Of a stretch of 64,000 bases of DNA, positions 8,842 through 52,013 are shown piece by piece. This stretch comes from Acidobacteriota bacterium (GTDB taxonomy: Bacteria; Acidobacteriota; Thermoanaerobaculia; Gp7-AA8): assembly GCA_019244185.1 (NCBI GenBank), contig JAFATB010000019.1:64001-128000 (forward strand), given 5' to 3'. Position 1 is the first letter of the stretch. Each line of letters starts with the position of its first letter. A program made the position numbers and the translations under genes. The notes beneath the pieces are model-generated. The model saw only the letters and a program-made list of their open reading frames with translations, had not been told where the DNA came from and did not search any database.

Positions 8842-11217
8842 TCACGGCTCCGCGCGCAGGCCGCCGACGGGCGCGGAGCTGCCGTAGATCGCGCCGTAAC
8901 GCTCGTACGAGTTCATCACCTTGCGGACGTAGTTTTTCGTTTCGTCGAAGTTGATCGCGCTCAGAAAGTAATCGTCGCCGGGCGCGGGCTGCAGGCGTGT
9001 CCAGAGCGCGACCTGTTTCGGACCGGCGTTGTAGGCGGCGCTGGCGCGATAGTGATCGCCGCCGAAGGTCTTCGACAACTCGCTGATGTACTTCGCGCCG
9101 AGGCGGATGATCACGCGCGGATCGTAGAGATCCTCCGGCGCGAGATCGACGATGCCGACGTCGCGGCCGATGTCGCGTGCGGTGGTGATAATGAACTGCA
9201 GCAGTCCGCGCGCGGCCGCCTCCGACTTCGCGCGCGGGTTGAAGCGCGACTCCTCGCGCATGATCGACAGCACGAGCGCGGGATCGGCCTCGTACTTTTT
9301 CGCGTCGTCGGCGATGTAGTTGTAGAAGTAGCGCGGGTAGAGGAGTTGCCGCACGACCTCCGGCAGAAGGTCCGGATGAAAGTCGTTCGGCACGGACTTC
9401 ATCATGACCTCGATCGCATAGATCGAGTCCTTCGACGCGCCGCCCTGGTTGAGCGCGAGCGAGCGCGTGAGCGCGGCGCGCGCGGGACGCAAACCCCAGC
9501 GCTTCTCGATCGACGGCACGGCGTCGTCGTACAAGCCCATGGCGAGGAGTTGATCCTGCGGCGTGGCCGCGTTCGGAAACTGCGGCAGCGACTCCGGCGT
9601 GAGCTCGAGGATCGCGCGATACGCCGGCAGCTCGCGATAGATCGCGGCGAGCTTCTGCAGTTGCGCCGCGCGGTCGCGCGAGGAGAGCAGCACGCGATCG
9701 GTCTGCAGCTGTTTCGCGGTGGCGAAGTTCTTCGCGGCGATGAGGTTCGCGACCTGCGCCTCGCGCAGCGCGAGCTCGCGCGTGAGCTTCGGCGCCATCG
9801 CCGGCGCGTCGAGCCGCTGCCGCGCAAAGTACGCAAAGTGCGTCGGCACTTTCGCGCGCAGCACATCGAGATAGTTGCGGAACGCCGCCGGCGGATCGCG
9901 ATCCTCGGCTGCCCGCGCGCGCCAGTACGCGAACTCCGCGCGGTCGTAGTCGTCGAGCAGTTTCGGCGGCACGCCGTTCAGCGTCGCGGTGGCGCCGGCG
10001 GGATTGCCGGTGCCGAGGAGCGCGATCGCGTACGCGAGCGAGCCTTCGACGATGGCGCGCTCGTTCGGCGCGAGCTTGCGCAGCTGCGCGAGATCGGCGC
10101 CCGCTTCCGCGAGGCGATGCTGCTTCGCGCGCGTACGCAGGCGTTGCGTCAGCGCGGCCAGCGTCGCCGGAAACTTCCCCGGCACCGCGATGGCCTGCGA
10201 CATCAGCTGCTCCGCGCCGCCGTCGTCGCCGCGCAGCTGCACGGAACGCGCGGCATGCCAGAGGAACGTCGCCTTCTGTCCCGGCGACTTCGTCGCGTTC
10301 GCGCCGCGCAGATAGGCCGCCTGCGCCTCCGCGAACTTCTCCGCGCCGAAGTAGCTGCGGCCGACGGCGAACTGCAGATCGTCGGTGTACGCGTGCTTCA
10401 GCGCGAGCTGCAGAAGCGCCGTCGCGCGGTCGAAGTGGCGGTGCTTCTGAAAGGTCTCGCCGAGGAGCGCCCACTGGTTGACGTTCATCCGCGGCAGGAG
10501 CTCGGGACGATCGAGCGCGCGCGCGGCGCGGTCGGCGGCGTCGTCGGACGTGCCGCCCTGCAGGAGCGCGAGGCCGCGCGTGAGCGCGCCGTTCGGATCG
10601 CGCTTCGCGGTCGCTTCGAGGATGCGCGCGGTGATGTCACGGCGCAGTGCCGTCGATGCGGACGGCGTGATCGTGGTCGCGAACTGCGTCAGGCGATTCG
10701 GGTCGTCGAGCGTCGAGAGATAGTCGATCTCGTCTTCGATCGCCTCGTCGCGATAGAGCGCGTGCGGATAGTCGGTGATGAGCGCCATGCGGTAGCGGCT
10801 CGCATCCTCGCCGTCCGCGATCGACGCGCGGTGATACAGCGCGAGCTCGCGCAGCGGATTGCCTTTCGCGAGAAACGGCTCGAGCTTCTTCGCGGCGTCC
10901 GACTTTTCGTTGCTCTCGATGAGAGCGCGCGCGTGCAGATATGCGAGCGAGTGGCGCGCGTAGAGGTCGGGCTGCTTCTGTTCGATCTGTTCGAGGAGCT
11001 CCGCGAGGTCGTCGCCGTCGAGCTGGCGGAACGTCGCCGACCATTGTTCGACCGGCGGGATGCCGCGCGGCGTCTCCGTCTTCTTCGTCTCGCCCGCGAC
11101 GGGCCGGAACACGCGATGGCGCTGCAGGCGCTCGCGGTACAGAACGATGCCGAAGATCGCGAGCAGGAGGACGAGCGCGGCGGCGGCGATGAGTACGTAG
11201 CGGCGGTTGCGGCTCAA
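8842..11217 (-). CDS. Membrane-anchored lytic transglycosylase (Slt70-like: TPR-like superhelix plus SLT domain)
   Basis: C-terminal SIMREESRF, ARGLLQF, AYNAG, ETKNYV. N-terminal TM helix. TTG start at 11217 inferred from TTGA overlap with the upstream stop. Confidence 0.88.
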   Translation of the reverse strand: MSRNRRYVLIAAAALVLLLAIFGIVLYRERLQRHRVFRPVAGETKKTETPRGIPPVEQWSATFRQLDGDDLAELLEQIEQKQPDLYARHSLAYLHARALIESNEKSDAAKKLEPFLAKGNPLRELALYHRASIADGEDASRYRMALITDYPHALYRDEAIEDEIDYLSTLDDPNRLTQFATTITPSASTALRRDITARILEATAKRDPNGALTRGLALLQGGTSDDAADRAARALDRPELLPRMNVNQWALLGETFQKHRHFDRATALLQLALKHAYTDDLQFAVGRSYFGAEKFAEAQAAYLRGANATKSPGQKATFLWHAARSVQLRGDDGGAEQLMSQAIAVPGKFPATLAALTQRLRTRAKQHRLAEAGADLAQLRKLAPNERAIVEGSLAYAIALLGTGNPAGATATLNGVPPKLLDDYDRAEFAYWRARAAEDRDPPAAFRNYLDVLRAKVPTHFAYFARQRLDAPAMAPKLTRELALREAQVANLIAAKNFATAKQLQTDRVLLSSRDRAAQLQKLAAIYRELPAYRAILELTPESLPQFPNAATPQDQLLAMGLYDDAVPSIEKRWGLRPARAALTRSLALNQGGASKDSIYAIEVMMKSVPNDFHPDLLPEVVRQLLYPRYFYNYIADDAKKYEADPALVLSIMREESRFNPRAKSEAAARGLLQFIITTARDIGRDVGIVDLAPEDLYDPRVIIRLGAKYISELSKTFGGDHYRASAAYNAGPKQVALWTRLQPAPGDDYFLSAINFDETKNYVRKVMNSYERYGAIYGSSAPVGGLRAEP

Positions 11218-48687: not shown

Positions 48688-50001
48688 ATGAAACGCCTCC
48701 TGTTCCTTGCGCTCCTCGCGACCACTGCCGCCGCCGACACGCCGATCGCCGCGACCGCACGAGCGCACGTCGTCGACGAGATCGCGCGGCAGATCACCGC
48801 GCGTTACGTGCTCGTCGACGCCGCGCCGAAGATCGCCGCCGCTCTGCGCGCGCGGACATACGACGACGCCACGACCGCGGAAGCGTTCGCGCGCGCGCTC
48901 ACCGACGATCTGCGCACGATCGGAAACGACCTCCATTTCGCCGTCGAATTCGATCCCGCGCGCGAACAGCGCCTGCGCGCCGCCGGCGCCGGCACGTTGC
49001 GCAAACTTCCCGACGTGCCGCCTACGCCCGACGAGCTCGAGTCGATGCGGCGTGCGAACTACGGATTCCGTAGTAGCTCGATCCTCGAAGGCAACGTCGG
49101 CTATCTCGAGCTGACGACGTTCGAAGACCTCGCGCGCTCGCGCGAGACCGCCGTCGCGGCGATGCAGTTCCTCGCGCACACCGACGCGCTCATCGTCGAT
49201 CTGCGCCGCAATCCCGGCGGCAGCGGCAACCTCGTGTCGTTTCTCCAGAGCTACTTCCTCCCGCCCGATACGCGCCTCGGCGCGATGTTCGACCGCGAGA
49301 CCGGCAAGACCACCGAAGGCCGCACGCTGCGCGCGATTCCGGGCGCGCGGCGCCTCGACATCCCGCTCTACATCCTCGCCGGACCCGGCACCGGCTCCGC
49401 GGCGGAAGCCTTCGCATTCGGCCTGCAGCTGCGCGGACGCGCGCGCATCGCCGGCGAGAAAACGTCGGGCGCGGCGCAGGGCGGCGGGTGGGTGCCGGCG
49501 GCGGAAGGCTTCGTCGTCTTCATCCCGACGTTCCGCGCGTTCGATCCAGCGACTGGGAAAACGTGGGAGCGCGTCGGCGTGCAGCCCGATCTCGCCGCGC
49601 CGGTCGAGCGCGCGCTCGCGGTCGCGCATCTCGACGCCGTGAACGCGCTCGCGGAGCACGCGAGCGACGACCGCAAACGCGAGCTGCACTGGCTCGCGGC
49701 GCTGCTCGACGTCGACGCGCACGGCGCGAAGCCGCTCGACGCGAACGACGCCGGCGCGATCGTCGGCCACTATCGCGGTATCGAGATCGAACGCGACGGC
49801 GATGCGCTCACCTTCCTCGGCGCGAGCGGCGTGAAACGCACGCTCATCCCGCTCGGCGACGGCACGTTCCTCATCGAAGACCGTTCCGTTCCGCGCATGA
49901 ATCAGGCGCGCGTGCGCTTCGTGCGCGACGATGCCGGACGCGTGAACGGACTCGAGCTCCTCACCGTGAGCGGGCAGGTGCTTCCGCGCCCGCGGCTTTG
50001 A
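48688..50001 (+). CDS. S41 family (IRBP-like) peptidase, secreted
   Basis: Signal peptide, NVGYL, DLRRNPGG, TGSAAE, GE.T.G, WE.VGVQPD. Confidence 0.88.
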   Translation: MKRLLFLALLATTAAADTPIAATARAHVVDEIARQITARYVLVDAAPKIAAALRARTYDDATTAEAFARALTDDLRTIGNDLHFAVEFDPAREQRLRAAGAGTLRKLPDVPPTPDELESMRRANYGFRSSSILEGNVGYLELTTFEDLARSRETAVAAMQFLAHTDALIVDLRRNPGGSGNLVSFLQSYFLPPDTRLGAMFDRETGKTTEGRTLRAIPGARRLDIPLYILAGPGTGSAAEAFAFGLQLRGRARIAGEKTSGAAQGGGWVPAAEGFVVFIPTFRAFDPATGKTWERVGVQPDLAAPVERALAVAHLDAVNALAEHASDDRKRELHWLAALLDVDAHGAKPLDANDAGAIVGHYRGIEIERDGDALTFLGASGVKRTLIPLGDGTFLIEDRSVPRMNQARVRFVRDDAGRVNGLELLTVSGQVLPRPRL

Positions 50002-50026
50002 CAAACACGCCGCACGGTTCTACATT
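49998..50026 (+). promoter_or_regulatory. Sigma70 promoter TTGACA-N17-TACATT
   Basis: -35 TTGACA 49998-50003, 17-nt spacer, -10 TACATT 50021-50026. Predicted start near 50033, just before the riboswitch. Confidence 0.8.
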
Positions 50027-50033
50027 GCGAATC

Positions 50034-50088
50034 GCTGGATTGATTTGGGGCCGCTTGCAACCAGCTTAAAAAAAGCTAAATCGCCGGC
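50034..50088 (+). ncRNA. SAM-II-like riboswitch aptamer (H-type pseudoknot)
   Basis: P1 GCTGG/CCAGC (50034-38 / 50061-65), GATTT (50042-46), TTGC (50055-58), A-rich linker, GCTAAA (50075-80), GCCG/CGGC pairing. Upstream of a methionine synthesis gene. Confidence 0.82.
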
Positions 50089-50113
50089 AAGTCGAACGCA
50101 TCGCATTCGAATC

Positions 50114-50150
50114 GGCCCCACGTCCTTCCGGCGTGGGGCTTTGTCTTTTT
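50114..50150 (+). terminator. Intrinsic terminator (riboswitch expression platform)
   Basis: GCCCCACG/CGTGGGGC stem (50115-22 / 50132-39) followed by TTTGTCTTTTT, immediately before ATG 50151. Confidence 0.8.
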
Positions 50151-52013
50151 ATGGAGTTCATCCAGGCAATCGCCGACGAGCACGTCTACCTCTTCGATGG
50201 TGCGATGGGGACGATGCTCTACGCGAAGGGCGTCTTCATCAACAAGTGCTACGACGAGCTGAACGTGCGCTCGCCGGAGATCGTGCTCGAGGTGCACCGG
50301 CAGTACGTGCGCGCGGGCGCGGAGATTCTCGAGACCAACACCTACGGCGCGAATCGCGTGAAGCTGCAGAGCTTCGGCATCGAGGACGAGCTGCGCGACA
50401 TCAACCTGCGCGCCGCCGAGATCGCGCGCAAGGCCGCGGGCGATTCCGTCTACGTCGCCGGCGCGATGGGACCGCTGGGCATCCGCATCGAGCCGTACGG
50501 ACCGATGGCGCTCGACGAGGCGCGCGGGATCTTTCGCGAACAGGCCGAGGCGCTGCGGGACGGCGGCGTGGATCTGTTCGTGCTCGAGACGTTCTCGAAC
50601 CTCAGCGAGATCGAACAGGCGCTCGAGGCGGTGCGCGACGTCTGCTCGCTGCCGGTGATCGCGCAGGTCACGATCGGCACCGACGGCCGCACGGTCTTCG
50701 GCGACACGCCGCGCGTCATCGCGCAGCGGCTCGACCGCGCCGGCGTCGACGTCATCGGCCTCAACTGCTCGGTCGGTCCCGACGTCATGCTCGACGCGAT
50801 CGAGGAGATGGCCGCGGTGACCGCGAAGAAGATCTCCTGTCAGCCGAACGCCGGCCTGCCGCGCGACGTCAACGGGCGGCAGATGTACATGGCCTCCCCT
50901 GACTACTTCGGCAAGTACGCCAAGCGGCTGATCCACAAGGGCGTCAAATTCATCGGCGGCTGCTGCGGCACGACGCCGGAGCACATCAAAGTCATGGCCG
51001 ACGCGGTGCGCCCGCTCTCGCCGCGGCGCGCGTTCGTCGTCGTCGAAAACGATCCGGCCGCCGACAAGCCCGCGGGCCGCGAGCCGGTGCCGATGTGCGA
51101 CCGCTCGCGCTGGGGCGAAAAGCTCGCGCGCGGCACGTTCGTCACCACGATCGAGATCACGCCGCCGAAAGGCGCGAACGCGGACGCGATGGTGCGCTCG
51201 GTGGAGAGCATCCGCGCCGCCGGAGTTGACGCCGTCAACGTCCCCGATGGCCCGCGCGCGCAAAACCGCATGGGCGCCATCGCCGTGGCCGTGCTGCTGC
51301 AGCAGCGCGTCGGCATCGAAGCGGTGCTGCACTACTGCTGCCGCGACCGCAATCTCCTCGGCATGCACTCCGATCTTCTCGGCTGCGCGGCGCTCGGCGT
51401 GCACAACCTGCTGCTGATCACCGGCGATCCGCCGAAGATGGGACCGTATCCCGAGGCGACGGCGGTGTTCGACATCGACAGCATCGGCCTCACGAACATG
51501 GTGAGCCTGATGAACCGCGGCCTCGACCTCGGCGGCAACCCATTCGGCGACGCCACGTGCTTCACGATCGGCGTCGGCGTGAATCCCGGTCATCTCGATC
51601 TCGATTACGAGCTGCGCCGCCTCGACTGGAAAGTGAAAGCCGGCGCCGAGTACGCGATCACGCAGCCGGTGTTCGACGTGCGGCAGCTCGAGCATTTCCT
51701 CGCGCGCATCGAACATCTGCACCTGCCCGTCGTCGCCGGCATCTGGCCGCTGCTCTCGTATCGCAACGCGCAGTTCATGAACAACGAAGTGCCGGGCGTC
51801 TCCGTGCCGGACGACGTCATGGAGCGCATGCGCATCGCGAGCGAGAAGGGCAAAGAGTTCGCGCTCGTCGAAGGCGTGACCATCGCGCGCGAGACGCTGG
51901 CCCGCGTGCGCGAGCGCGTCGCCGGCGTGCAGGTCTCCGCGCCGCTGGGACGCGTCGATCTCGCGCTGCAGGTGTTCGACGGACTCGTCGAGAAGCGCGT
52001 CAGCGCGTCGTGA
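50151..52013 (+). CDS. yitJ: Bifunctional homocysteine S-methyltransferase / 5,10-methylenetetrahydrofolate reductase
   Basis: FDGAMGT, GLNCS.GP, PNAGLP, IGGCCGTTPEHI; MTHFR half EITPP, DGP, RDRN, ITGDPP, ITQPVFD. Confidence 0.92.
   Translation: MEFIQAIADEHVYLFDGAMGTMLYAKGVFINKCYDELNVRSPEIVLEVHRQYVRAGAEILETNTYGANRVKLQSFGIEDELRDINLRAAEIARKAAGDSVYVAGAMGPLGIRIEPYGPMALDEARGIFREQAEALRDGGVDLFVLETFSNLSEIEQALEAVRDVCSLPVIAQVTIGTDGRTVFGDTPRVIAQRLDRAGVDVIGLNCSVGPDVMLDAIEEMAAVTAKKISCQPNAGLPRDVNGRQMYMASPDYFGKYAKRLIHKGVKFIGGCCGTTPEHIKVMADAVRPLSPRRAFVVVENDPAADKPAGREPVPMCDRSRWGEKLARGTFVTTIEITPPKGANADAMVRSVESIRAAGVDAVNVPDGPRAQNRMGAIAVAVLLQQRVGIEAVLHYCCRDRNLLGMHSDLLGCAALGVHNLLLITGDPPKMGPYPEATAVFDIDSIGLTNMVSLMNRGLDLGGNPFGDATCFTIGVGVNPGHLDLDYELRRLDWKVKAGAEYAITQPVFDVRQLEHFLARIEHLHLPVVAGIWPLLSYRNAQFMNNEVPGVSVPDDVMERMRIASEKGKEFALVEGVTIARETLARVRERVAGVQVSAPLGRVDLALQVFDGLVEKRVSAS

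What the first reader, a model, noticed from the sequence alone, without database searches (positions are those of the whole stretch)
49998..50153. SAM-II-like riboswitch wired to a transcription terminator/antiterminator
Seen: promoter TTGACA-N17-TACATT; aptamer with SAM-II hallmarks (P1, GAUUU, UUGC, A-run, GCUAAA); small hairpin TCGAA/TTCGA (50092-50110); then a strong terminator with U-tract ending at the yitJ ATG. The aptamer loop TGGGGCCG (50046-50053) is the exact complement of CGGCCCCA (50113-50120), the 5' arm of the terminator. Known: SAM-II is mostly proteobacterial and typically acts by hiding the Shine-Dalgarno, while yitJ in Firmicutes is under SAM-I control. Inference: without SAM the loop invades the terminator (read-through); with SAM the pseudoknot locks the loop and termination occurs. 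This is a compact transcriptional SAM-II switch in an unexpected lineage.
Basis: partly seen in the sequence, partly recalled or inferred. Interest (0 to 1): 0.8.

Follow-up and report, generated by a model that had tools for sequence, protein, structure and literature searches.

The report
Acidobacterial SAM-II riboswitch with terminator
This is a real S-adenosylmethionine-sensing RNA switch of the known SAM-II type that most likely shuts off a methionine-synthesis gene by ending transcription early. It sits in a soil acidobacterium, not a Firmicute, and is an ordinary kind of switch with a clade-specific wiring.

Summary
Window 50031-50150 holds a promoter, a SAM-II-like pseudoknot aptamer, an intrinsic terminator and an exact 8-nt loop/terminator-arm complement.

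Rfam scores the aptamer just under threshold: RF01726 40.4 bits against 44, RF00521 26.8 against 36.

The host is a Thermoanaerobaculia acidobacterium. The gene is the YitJ-type homocysteine methyltransferase/MTHFR fusion. A second copy precedes metH.

A model built from relatives finds the element in 36 of 36 sampled genomes of the window's family and its sister family, and in 0 of 114 other genomes of the class. Of 89 unique leaders, 87 carry a terminator.

The aptamer's third strand plus linker loop pairs with the terminator's 5' arm. 94% of cells are paired against 36-52% when slid, and one pair shows CG/GC/AU exchange. Each leader fits its own terminator better than other leaders' terminators (0 of 5000 permutations).

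The most likely function is a SAM OFF switch.

The novelty claim fails. SAM-II riboswitches are mostly transcriptional (PMC1273637, PMC2258182, PMC6061858). What is new is the clade, its near-invisibility to Rfam thresholds, and an antiterminator drawn from the aptamer's 5' half.

The parts
49998..50026 (+). Sigma-70-type promoter, TTGACA-17-TACATT. The -10 ends 7 nt before the first base of P1's GCUGG.
   Evidence: 10 of 12 matches, 1 site against 0.1 in shuffles; a TTGACN-N16-18-TANNNT site lies within 40 nt upstream in 64 of 89 unique related leaders. In 62 of those 64 it ends 6-8 nt before the base preceding CUGG.
50034..50038 (+). P1 5' strand (GCUGG). It is also the outer part of the antiterminator 5' strand.
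   Evidence: P1 cells are 95.5% paired in 49 leaders, with no covariation because the columns are almost invariant.
50039..50046 (+). L1, the predicted triplex third strand (AUUGAUUU).
   Evidence: One search aligns it to the GAUUU of both Rfam models. It is invariant in A2. Its role as third strand is inferred from the SAM-V/SAM-II structures (PMC6061858).
50047..50053 (+). Linker loop X (GGGGCCG) between the third strand and the P2 5' strand. This is the position of the P2a 5' strand in classical SAM-II. Here it is the core of the antiterminator.
50054..50058 (+). P2 (pseudoknot) 5' strand, CUUGC.
   Evidence: pairs 27-30 with 47-51 are 100% paired and invariant.
50061..50065 (+). P1 3' strand, CCAGC.
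50066..50074 (+). A-rich L3 (UUAAAAAAA).
   Evidence: Its A-minor role is inferred from PMC6061858.
50075..50084 (+). P2 3' strand GCUAAA, then UC, then GC. The GC can form a 2-bp P2a with G50053/C50054.
   Evidence: columns 25:56 and 26:55 are paired in 43 of 49.
50092..50110 (+). Spacer hairpin, TCGAA...TTCGA.
   Evidence: Present in only about half of relatives, so it is probably a spacer and not a required part.
50113..50133 (+). Antiterminator 3' strand. It covers the terminator 5' arm, the apical loop and the first bases of the 3' arm.
   Evidence: Searches give U46:A120, G47-C52:C119-G114, G42-U44:C124-G122 and C33-A39:G133-U127.
50114..50140 (+). Intrinsic terminator hairpin.
   Evidence: 11 pairs, 8 of them G-C, loop of 5; 96% paired in 49 leaders, with 4 pairs changed on both sides.
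50140..50150 (+). U-tract (TTTGTCTTTTT), abutting the start codon.
50151..52013 (+). Regulated gene: the bifunctional homocysteine S-methyltransferase/methylenetetrahydrofolate reductase (YitJ type), 620 aa.
   Evidence: PF02574 and PF02219. NF006396, 741 bits against a cut-off of 453.

Best explanation
A SAM-II-family riboswitch in a Thermoanaerobaculia (Acidobacteriota) genome that acts as a transcriptional OFF switch on the YitJ-type methionine-synthesis gene.

Transcription starts just before P1.

Without SAM, the aptamer's 5' half pairs with the terminator's 5' arm and apical loop (50113-50133). That 5' half comprises the P1 5' strand, the U-rich third strand L1 and the G-rich linker loop (50033-50053). 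The terminator hairpin then cannot form, and RNA polymerase reads into the gene.

With SAM, P1 forms, the CUUGC/GCUAAA pseudoknot forms, and L1 forms a triplex in the pseudoknot's major groove. This ties up the antiterminator strand. The terminator at 50114-50140 forms and transcription stops at the U-tract.

Shown here: the sequence features, their conservation, the covariation of antiterminator and terminator, the gene association, and the energy ranking of the two folds.

Inferred: SAM binding, the triplex, and the direction of the switch.
For: 1. Aptamer identity. RF01726 scores 40.4 bits (E 1.7e-6) and RF00521 scores 26.8 bits (E 3.2e-4) on 50025-50099, both over the full model length. 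The core motifs GAUUU, CUUGC, the A-run and GCUAAA are invariant or nearly so in 49 aligned leaders (one leader, L030, reads GAAUUU and AUUGC). Two close orthologous leaders do pass the RF00521 cut-off (L001 at 37.6; L115 at 36.6).

2. Gene context. Both copies in the genome precede homocysteine-to-methionine genes: the YitJ type and metH. Among 89 unique related leaders, 52 precede yitJ-type genes, 36 precede metH and 1 is undetermined.

3. Terminator. 87 of 89 unique leaders carry a hairpin plus T-run within 125 nt. The metH copy lies next to a divergent upstream gene, so its terminator cannot serve that neighbour.

4. Antiterminator.
- Columns 12-25 with 93-104 are 94.0% paired. The whole 17-pair structure is 90.5% paired against 35.7-52.1% when slid by 1-3 columns.
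- Pair 24:94 reads CG 35, GC 6, AU 3, GU 1, other 4.
- The metH leaders use another register and sequence, for example UUUGCGGGGCUG with CAGCCCCGCAA.
- Own-loop with own-arm duplexes average -17.9 kcal/mol against -15.7 for mismatched pairs. 0 of 5000 permutations reach the matched mean, over 70 unique combinations.
- 81 of 87 duplexes are at or below -12 kcal/mol.

5. Mutual exclusion. The antiterminator consumes L1 and the P1 5' strand. In the SAM-V/SAM-II structures these are the ligand-pocket third strand and the aptamer stem (PMC6061858).

6. Energetics. The antiterminator fold is -45.3 kcal/mol and the enforced P1+terminator fold is -39.3, in a pseudoknot-free model. The apo RNA therefore favours read-through, and the ligand-bound tertiary fold has to tip the balance.

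7. Orthologous genes in Blastocatellia carry RF00521-type aptamers wired unambiguously OFF. There, GCUAAACAGC pairs with the terminator's apical part in 38 of 40 leaders, at or below -10 kcal/mol.
Against: - Neither Rfam model reaches its gathering score in the window.
- P1 and the pseudoknot show no covariation in this clade because their columns never vary. The aptamer fold therefore rests on homology to SAM-II, not on independent covariation.
- Only one antiterminator pair shows changes on both sides. The shuffle control for 'pairs with a change on both sides' is not exceeded (477 of 500).
- The sequences are related, so the permutation result overstates independence.
- G-rich loop with C-rich terminator arm is partly a composition effect: mismatched pairs still give -15.7 kcal/mol.
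- Two of 89 leaders, both metH (L094, L149), have the aptamer and no terminator.
- There are no binding data, no transcription data and no usable RNA reads.
Confidence: 0.8

Rival explanations
1. ON-switch reading. The loop/arm helix (50046-53 with 50113-20) is the aptamer's own distal P2a helix, with the spacer as an insertion. SAM would then stabilise it, hold the terminator arm and increase read-through.
For: The linker loop sits exactly where classical SAM-II has its P2a 5' strand (PMC6061858). The local P2a with the immediate 3' tail is only 2 bp here. The topology of loop pairing with a downstream strand is the same as P2a.
Against: - The conserved pairing runs on into L1 (GAU with GUC; UUU with AAA or CAA in the metH leaders) and into the P1 5' strand. 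These segments must be free for the ligand-bound fold.
- SAM-induced expression of methionine synthases would be the reverse of every characterised SAM switch.
- Orthologous Blastocatellia leaders are wired OFF.
- Spacer length and content vary freely.
Confidence: 0.05
2. The aptamer is a SAM-II look-alike that has shifted ligand, for example to S-adenosylhomocysteine or another methionine-cycle metabolite.
For: It fails both Rfam cut-offs. Variant aptamers with changed ligands exist in other classes, for example the SAM-I variants that sense spermidine (PMC10853860, abstract). From my own recall, not from any call: metH and MTHFR genes are typical targets of SAH riboswitches in Proteobacteria.
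Against: All positions matching the conserved SAM-pocket motifs of RF00521 and RF01726 are kept, and they are invariant or nearly so in 49 leaders. The wiring favours ligand-dependent termination, which suits SAM and not SAH.
Confidence: 0.05
3. The terminator is constitutive or leaky, and the loop/arm complementarity is a by-product of G+C-rich composition. The aptamer would then control something else, such as translation or RNA stability.
For: Mismatched loop/arm pairs still pair well at -15.7 kcal/mol. The start codon abuts the U-tract with no Shine-Dalgarno sequence, so a hairpin there could also affect translation. In S. meliloti a SAM-II leader carries a terminator that is not riboswitch-driven (PMC9373788).
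Against: - There are compensatory CG/GC/AU exchanges at pair 24:94.
- The two gene classes use class-specific registers, and own pairs beat mismatched pairs.
- Slid controls give 36-52% paired against 90.5%.
Confidence: 0.07

Closest known systems
SAM-II riboswitch (Rfam RF00521 SAM_alpha; A. tumefaciens metA, S. meliloti metZ)
   Same: H-type pseudoknot layout. It has the same conserved GAUUU, CUUGC, A-rich L3 and GCUAAA motifs. The promoter sits just before P1 and an intrinsic terminator lies between P2 and the ORF, read as an OFF switch (PMC1273637). The regulated genes are methionine-pathway genes.
   Different: It scores 26.8 bits, below the 36-bit cut-off. P2a is 2 bp, where 60% of SAM-II have a stable 5 bp (PMC6061858). 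The linker loop and third strand are complementary to the terminator 5' arm, so the aptamer's 5' half supplies the antiterminator strand. In the RF00521-type Blastocatellia leaders examined here, the P2 3' strand supplies it. The host phylum is Acidobacteriota.
SAM-II long-loop motif (Rfam RF01726; Weinberg et al. 2010)
   Same: It is the best-scoring Rfam model (40.4 bits, E 1.7e-6, full length), with an enlarged loop between L1 and the P2 strand.
   Different: The score is below the 44-bit cut-off. The motif was reported from Bacteroidetes and marine samples (PMC2864571 table). Its description is in a supplement I could not open.
SAM-V riboswitch (metY, 'Ca. Pelagibacter')
   Same: The same pseudoknot and triplex ligand pocket as SAM-II, with a 2-bp P2a (PMC6061858).
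   Different: SAM-V is translational and has a P3 hairpin. No SAM-V hit appeared at E up to 10 in 49900-50250.
S-box / SAM-I riboswitch upstream of B. subtilis yitJ
   Same: The same regulated gene family and the same logic: SAM-dependent terminator against antiterminator. PMC6061858 describes SAM-I as a transcriptional OFF switch.
   Different: An unrelated aptamer fold (a four-way junction). No SAM-I hit in the window.

Membership tests
SAM-II (Rfam RF00521 SAM_alpha) | Infernal score at or above the curated gathering score (36 bits) | tested here: not met
   26.8 bits, E 3.2e-4 in a 351-nt search. No hit at gathering in the whole window. In the same clade, 2 of 50 loci pass: L001 among 10, L115 among 20 and 0 of 20.
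SAM-II (Rfam RF00521 SAM_alpha) | P1 hairpin whose loop 3' side pairs with a 3' tail (H-type pseudoknot P2) | tested here: met
   GCUGG/CCAGC and CUUGC/GCUAAA are complementary. P1 is 95.5% paired and P2 is 100% paired in 49 leaders, but the columns never vary, so there is no covariation support within this clade.
SAM-II (Rfam RF00521 SAM_alpha) | Conserved core nucleotides: L1 GAUUU, CUUGC, A-rich L3, GCUAAA | tested here: met
   All are aligned to the model consensus. They are invariant or nearly so in 49 leaders.
SAM-II (Rfam RF00521 SAM_alpha) | Stable P2a helix of about 5 bp between the linker and the immediate 3' tail (60% of members, PMC6061858) | tested here: not met
   Only 2 bp (G50053:C50084 and C50054:G50083), paired in 43 of 49 leaders. 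The rest of the linker covaries with the terminator arm instead.
SAM-II (Rfam RF00521 SAM_alpha) | Selective binding of SAM over SAH | not testable with these tools
   This needs in-line probing or ITC.
SAM-II (Rfam RF00521 SAM_alpha) | Location in 5' leaders of methionine/SAM genes, usually with an intrinsic terminator | tested here: met
   The genes are the YitJ type and metH. A terminator is present in 87 of 89 unique leaders.
SAM-II long loop (Rfam RF01726) | Infernal score at or above the gathering score (44 bits) | tested here: not met
   40.4 bits in the window and 38.1 bits for the metH copy.
SAM-V (Rfam) | Any match to the family model | tested here: not met
   Not among the 4 matches at E up to 10 in 49900-50250.
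SAM-I / S-box (RF00162) | Any match to the family model | tested here: not met
   No hit at gathering in the window and none at E up to 10 around the leader.

The most novel reading that the evidence does not exclude
This clade has re-wired SAM-II. The classical P2a helix is reduced to 2 bp. The freed linker, together with the ligand-pocket third strand itself, serves as the antiterminator, a form of 'third-strand capture'. Orthologous genes in Blastocatellia keep the opposite wiring, in which the P2 3' strand is the antiterminator. That gives two mirror-image expression platforms on one aptamer class within one phylum, in a switch of about 118 nt. It could serve as the missing experimental model for how transcriptional SAM-II riboswitches work.
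Probability: 0.65. Interest if true: 0.4.

Novelty: new variant of a known kind. Interest (0 to 1): 0.3.

Why it matters
1. Annotation. In this order of soil Acidobacteriota, two methionine-synthase genes per genome are preceded by a SAM riboswitch that Rfam's curated thresholds miss in 48 of 50 loci tested. Standard pipelines will leave these leaders blank. The model R1 finds them at 56-87 bits.

2. Mechanism. Reviews note that most SAM-II riboswitches are transcriptional, yet structural and kinetic work has used the rare translational metX RNA (PMC6061858). In 2007 the control mechanisms were called not yet experimentally established (PMC2258182). This leader is a compact natural example with a covarying, easily mutated antiterminator.

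3. Evolution. Two different antiterminator wirings on orthologous genes in one phylum show how freely expression platforms are rebuilt around a fixed aptamer.

None of this changes the picture of what SAM-II riboswitches are.

Tried and rejected
- Whole-window Rfam scan at gathering thresholds: nothing. This looked like a refutation until the E-value scan.
- RNAalifold on the 49 leaders recovered the terminator. It gave a meaningless aptamer fold built on invariant columns, and it cannot show the pseudoknot or the alternative fold.
- My first two regex parsers failed for technical reasons and were replaced.
- My terminator finder picked an upstream hairpin in L097 and L123. Their weak duplex values (-9.6 and -9.2) are therefore artefacts.
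- Public runs: 24 listed. Only metagenome contigs hold the stretch, and the rows marked RNA hold 0.05-0.06 of the sampled words. Contigs cannot show RNA ends, so I did not lay reads. There is no expression evidence either way.
- The spacer hairpin as a functional part: rejected as general, since about half of relatives have it.
- Pairing of the linker with the immediate 3' tail (a classical P2a) was examined on the alignment. Only the 2 bp next to P2 are kept.
- The idea that the terminator belongs to the upstream S41 peptidase gene: rejected, because the promoter lies between them and the metH copy has a divergent neighbour.
- Literature searches for SAM-II in Acidobacteria and for a SAM-II antiterminator gave no paper describing either, judged by listing and abstract starts. 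I read passages only of PMC2864571, PMC9373788, PMC2258182 and PMC10907184.
- Supplements were not opened: Additional file 1 of PMC2864571, Figure S1 of PMC9373788 and Figure S5 of PMC6061858. They may describe long-loop SAM-II details or a SAM-II antiterminator, and so bear on the claim that the wiring is new.
- No structure prediction, protein search or complex prediction was needed.


Full report
**What is in the sequence**

- A sigma-70-type promoter, TTGACA-17-TACATT, lies at 49998-50026. It overlaps the stop codon of an upstream S41 peptidase gene.
- Seven bases after the -10 element begins a 5-bp stem, GCUGG 50034-38 with CCAGC 50061-65.
- That stem encloses the loop AUUGAUUU-GGGGCCG-CUUGC-AA.
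- After the stem come UUAAAAAAA and GCUAAA (50075-80).
- Further on lie a small hairpin (50092-50110), an 11-bp G+C-rich hairpin (50114-50140) and TTTGTCTTTTT, which runs straight into the ATG at 50151.
- TGGGGCCG (50046-53) and CGGCCCCA (50113-20) are exact reverse complements.

The 8-mer is expected 1.85 times in the whole window on both strands. A copy within 100 nt on the right strand would therefore arise by chance about 0.15% of the time (my arithmetic).

**What the aptamer is**

At Rfam's curated thresholds the window has no RNA family hit at all. With E-value reporting on 49900-50250, two full-length matches appear:

| Rfam model | Score (bits) | Cut-off (bits) | E-value |
|---|---|---|---|
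| RF01726, SAM-II long loop | 40.4 | 44 | 1.7e-6 |
| RF00521, SAM_alpha (classical SAM-II) | 26.8 | 36 | 3.2e-4 |

No SAM-V and no SAM-I match appears at E up to 10.

Every strongly conserved word of the two models is present: GAUUU, CUUGC, the A-run and GCUAAA. The element is therefore a SAM-II-family aptamer that sits just outside the curated score limits.

Huang and Lilley describe the fold as follows (PMC6061858, passages read). The U-rich stretch after P1 is the third strand of a major-groove triplex on P2. SAM lies in that triplex. The nucleotides that link the third strand to the descending P2 strand form a helix, P2a, with the sequence just 3' of the aptamer.

In the window that linker is GGGGCCG. 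Only its last base and the following C can pair with the immediate tail (G50053:C50084 and C50054:G50083).

**Organism and gene**

The downstream 620-aa protein carries PF02574 plus PF02219. It meets the NCBIfam equivalog for the bifunctional homocysteine S-methyltransferase/methylenetetrahydrofolate reductase (741 bits against a cut-off of 453). This is the YitJ type.

Its 33 best genomic relatives have 77-87% amino-acid identity. All are labelled Thermoanaerobaculia or Acidobacteriota assemblies. The next group is Pyrinomonadaceae/Blastocatellia at 61-66%.

**Distribution**

- The genome holds a second copy, in front of metH. It scores 38.1 bits for RF01726 and 31.4 bits for RF00521.
- I built a covariance model from 28 aptamers and searched 151 genomes of the class.
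- It found 72 hits at 56-87 bits in 37 genomes. These were the window's own genome, 35 of 35 others in its family and 1 of 1 in the sister family of the order. It found 0 of 114 genomes in 15 other families.
- 35 of the 37 genomes have exactly two copies.
- One of these genomes, G135, is unpublished. Without it the counts are 36 of 150 genomes and 34 of 34 in the family.
- The searches used strict filters on a sample, so 'not found in those searched' is all that can be said for the other families.
- Rfam's own thresholds detect very few of these leaders: 1 of 10, 1 of 20 and 0 of 20.
- Across the phylum, RF00521 passes its cut-off in 12 of 151 sampled genomes and gives E up to 0.001 in 24 of 151. 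SAM-II as such is therefore present in several acidobacterial families.
- My parser found a SAM-II-like aptamer in 73 of 82 leaders of the orthologous gene (80 loci plus the window's two).

**Terminator and promoter in relatives**

I examined 103 loci and could parse 100. L002 has no aptamer, L028 is cut by its contig end, and L030 has a variant L1 that my pattern missed. The 100 gave 89 unique leaders.

- 87 of 89 have a hairpin plus T-run within 125 nt. The two exceptions are metH leaders (L094, L149).
- 64 of 89 have TTGACN-N16-18-TANNNT within 40 nt upstream. In 62 of those 64 the -10 ends 6-8 nt before the stem.
- This matches the original description of SAM-II: a near-consensus promoter a few nucleotides before P1, and a putative terminator between P2 and the ORF in many representatives (PMC1273637, passages).

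**The alternative fold**

The minimum-free-energy structure of the leader is not aptamer plus terminator. It is a long helix in which 50033-50052 pairs with 50114-50133:

- C33-A39 with G133-U127
- G42-U44 with C124-G122
- U46-C52 with A120-G114

Its energy is -45.3 kcal/mol. Enforcing P1 and the terminator gives -39.3 kcal/mol, in a model that cannot score the pseudoknot.

The antiterminator therefore consumes the P1 5' strand, the third strand and the linker. All of the aptamer's 5' half is used.

**Is that helix real?**

On a MAFFT alignment of 49 distinct yitJ-type leaders, I counted the helix I specified:

- 90.5% of cells are paired, against 35.7-52.1% when the 3' partners are slid by 1-3 columns.
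- The core (columns 12-25 with 93-104) is 94.0% paired.
- Pair 24:94 reads CG 35, GC 6, AU 3, GU 1 and unpaired 4. It is the one position with true compensatory exchange.
- Pairs 23:95 and 25:93 vary by G-U wobble.
- The outer part (P1 strand with UCCGGC) is 82.6% paired and varies on one side only.

The metH leaders carry different loops, such as GCGGGGCUG or GCGGGCCG, and correspondingly different arms, such as CAGCCCCGCAA. The register extends into the UUU of the third strand.

Over 70 unique loop/arm combinations, a leader's own pair averages -17.9 kcal/mol and mismatched pairs average -15.7. 0 of 5000 permutations reach the matched mean. 81 of 87 own-pair duplexes are at or below -12 kcal/mol, and two of the six weaker ones are artefacts of my terminator finder.

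Caveats:

- The sequences are kin, so these figures overstate independence.
- Much of the pairing is GGGG with CCCC, which any such terminator would offer.
- Only one pair shows double changes.

The terminator itself is 96.0% paired, with four doubly-changed pairs. P1 and P2 never vary and so give no covariation signal.

**Direction of the switch**

The linker sits where P2a's 5' strand sits in classical SAM-II. One could therefore read the loop/arm helix as a distal P2a that SAM stabilises, which would make an ON switch. I rate this low for four reasons:

- The conserved pairing runs on into the third strand and P1, which the ligand-bound fold needs.
- The spacer is free in length and content, and its hairpin is present in only 27 of 52 yitJ-type and 16 of 34 metH-type leaders.
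- The regulated genes make methionine.
- The orthologous Blastocatellia leaders, whose aptamers do pass RF00521, are wired so that GCUAAACAGC (the P2 3' strand) pairs with the apical part of the terminator in 38 of 40 cases. That is an unambiguous OFF design.

SAM binding, the triplex and the termination response remain inferences.

**Comparison with what is known**

- Corbino et al. 2005 already inferred an OFF switch from terminators.
[quoted passage not shown] They also say that its control mechanisms had not been experimentally established.
- Scheuer et al. 2022 describe the S. meliloti metZ SAM-II riboswitch as predicted to terminate transcription.

A transcriptional SAM-II is therefore the rule.

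What I did not find in print is SAM-II in Acidobacteriota, or an antiterminator drawn from L1 and the linker. I searched, judging by listings and abstract starts only. Barrick and Breaker's main text does not mention Acidobacteria. The supplements that might show SAM-II expression-platform models were not available.

**Verdict**

This is a genuine, well-conserved riboswitch of a known class with the class's usual mode of action. It occurs in a lineage where it goes unannotated, and its wiring is clade-specific.

I rate it as a new variant of a known kind, with modest interest.

Noticed in passing
G233:C53:9738-9810 and 9879-9950; G244:C128:9976-10046 and 10102-10173; G189:C9:287827-287903 and 287984-288063, also 293163-293241 and 293301-293378; G174:C323; G236:C35: In several other Acidobacteriota genomes, RF00521 hits come in same-strand pairs about 110-160 nt apart. 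This suggests tandem SAM-II aptamers in one leader. The scores are mostly below the cut-off.
   Followed up: no
L093, L011, L020, L019, L089, L069, L064, L038 and others, between the terminator and the start codon: Many orthologous leaders carry an insertion of short tandem repeats between the riboswitch terminator and the ATG. It is often followed by the inverse copy, making a long hairpin. Examples are ACCCAGCA repeats in L093 and GTAGTCA-type repeats in Pyrinomonadaceae. The window's own leader lacks it.
   Followed up: no
L094 (G022, sister family) and L149 (G083, same genus as the window), metH leaders: These two leaders have an intact aptamer but no hairpin plus T-run before the start codon. 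They may use another mode of control, or may have lost the terminator.
   Followed up: partly
L002 (87% amino-acid identity orthologue), about 1330-1500: In one close relative the orthologous gene has a TTGACA promoter directly upstream and no aptamer or terminator. The riboswitch seems to have been lost there.
   Followed up: no
window 50140-50153, and relatives: The start codon follows the terminator U-tract directly and there is no Shine-Dalgarno sequence. In 17 of 42 parsed yitJ-type leaders the ATG lies 5-11 nt after the start of the T-run. A reformed terminator hairpin could therefore also hinder translation initiation.
   Followed up: partly
L034-L079 (Blastocatellia/Pyrinomonadaceae orthologues): These leaders carry RF00521-type aptamers. 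Their GCUAAACAGC tail is complementary to the apical part of the terminator in 38 of 40 leaders. This is the opposite wiring from the window's clade.
   Followed up: yes
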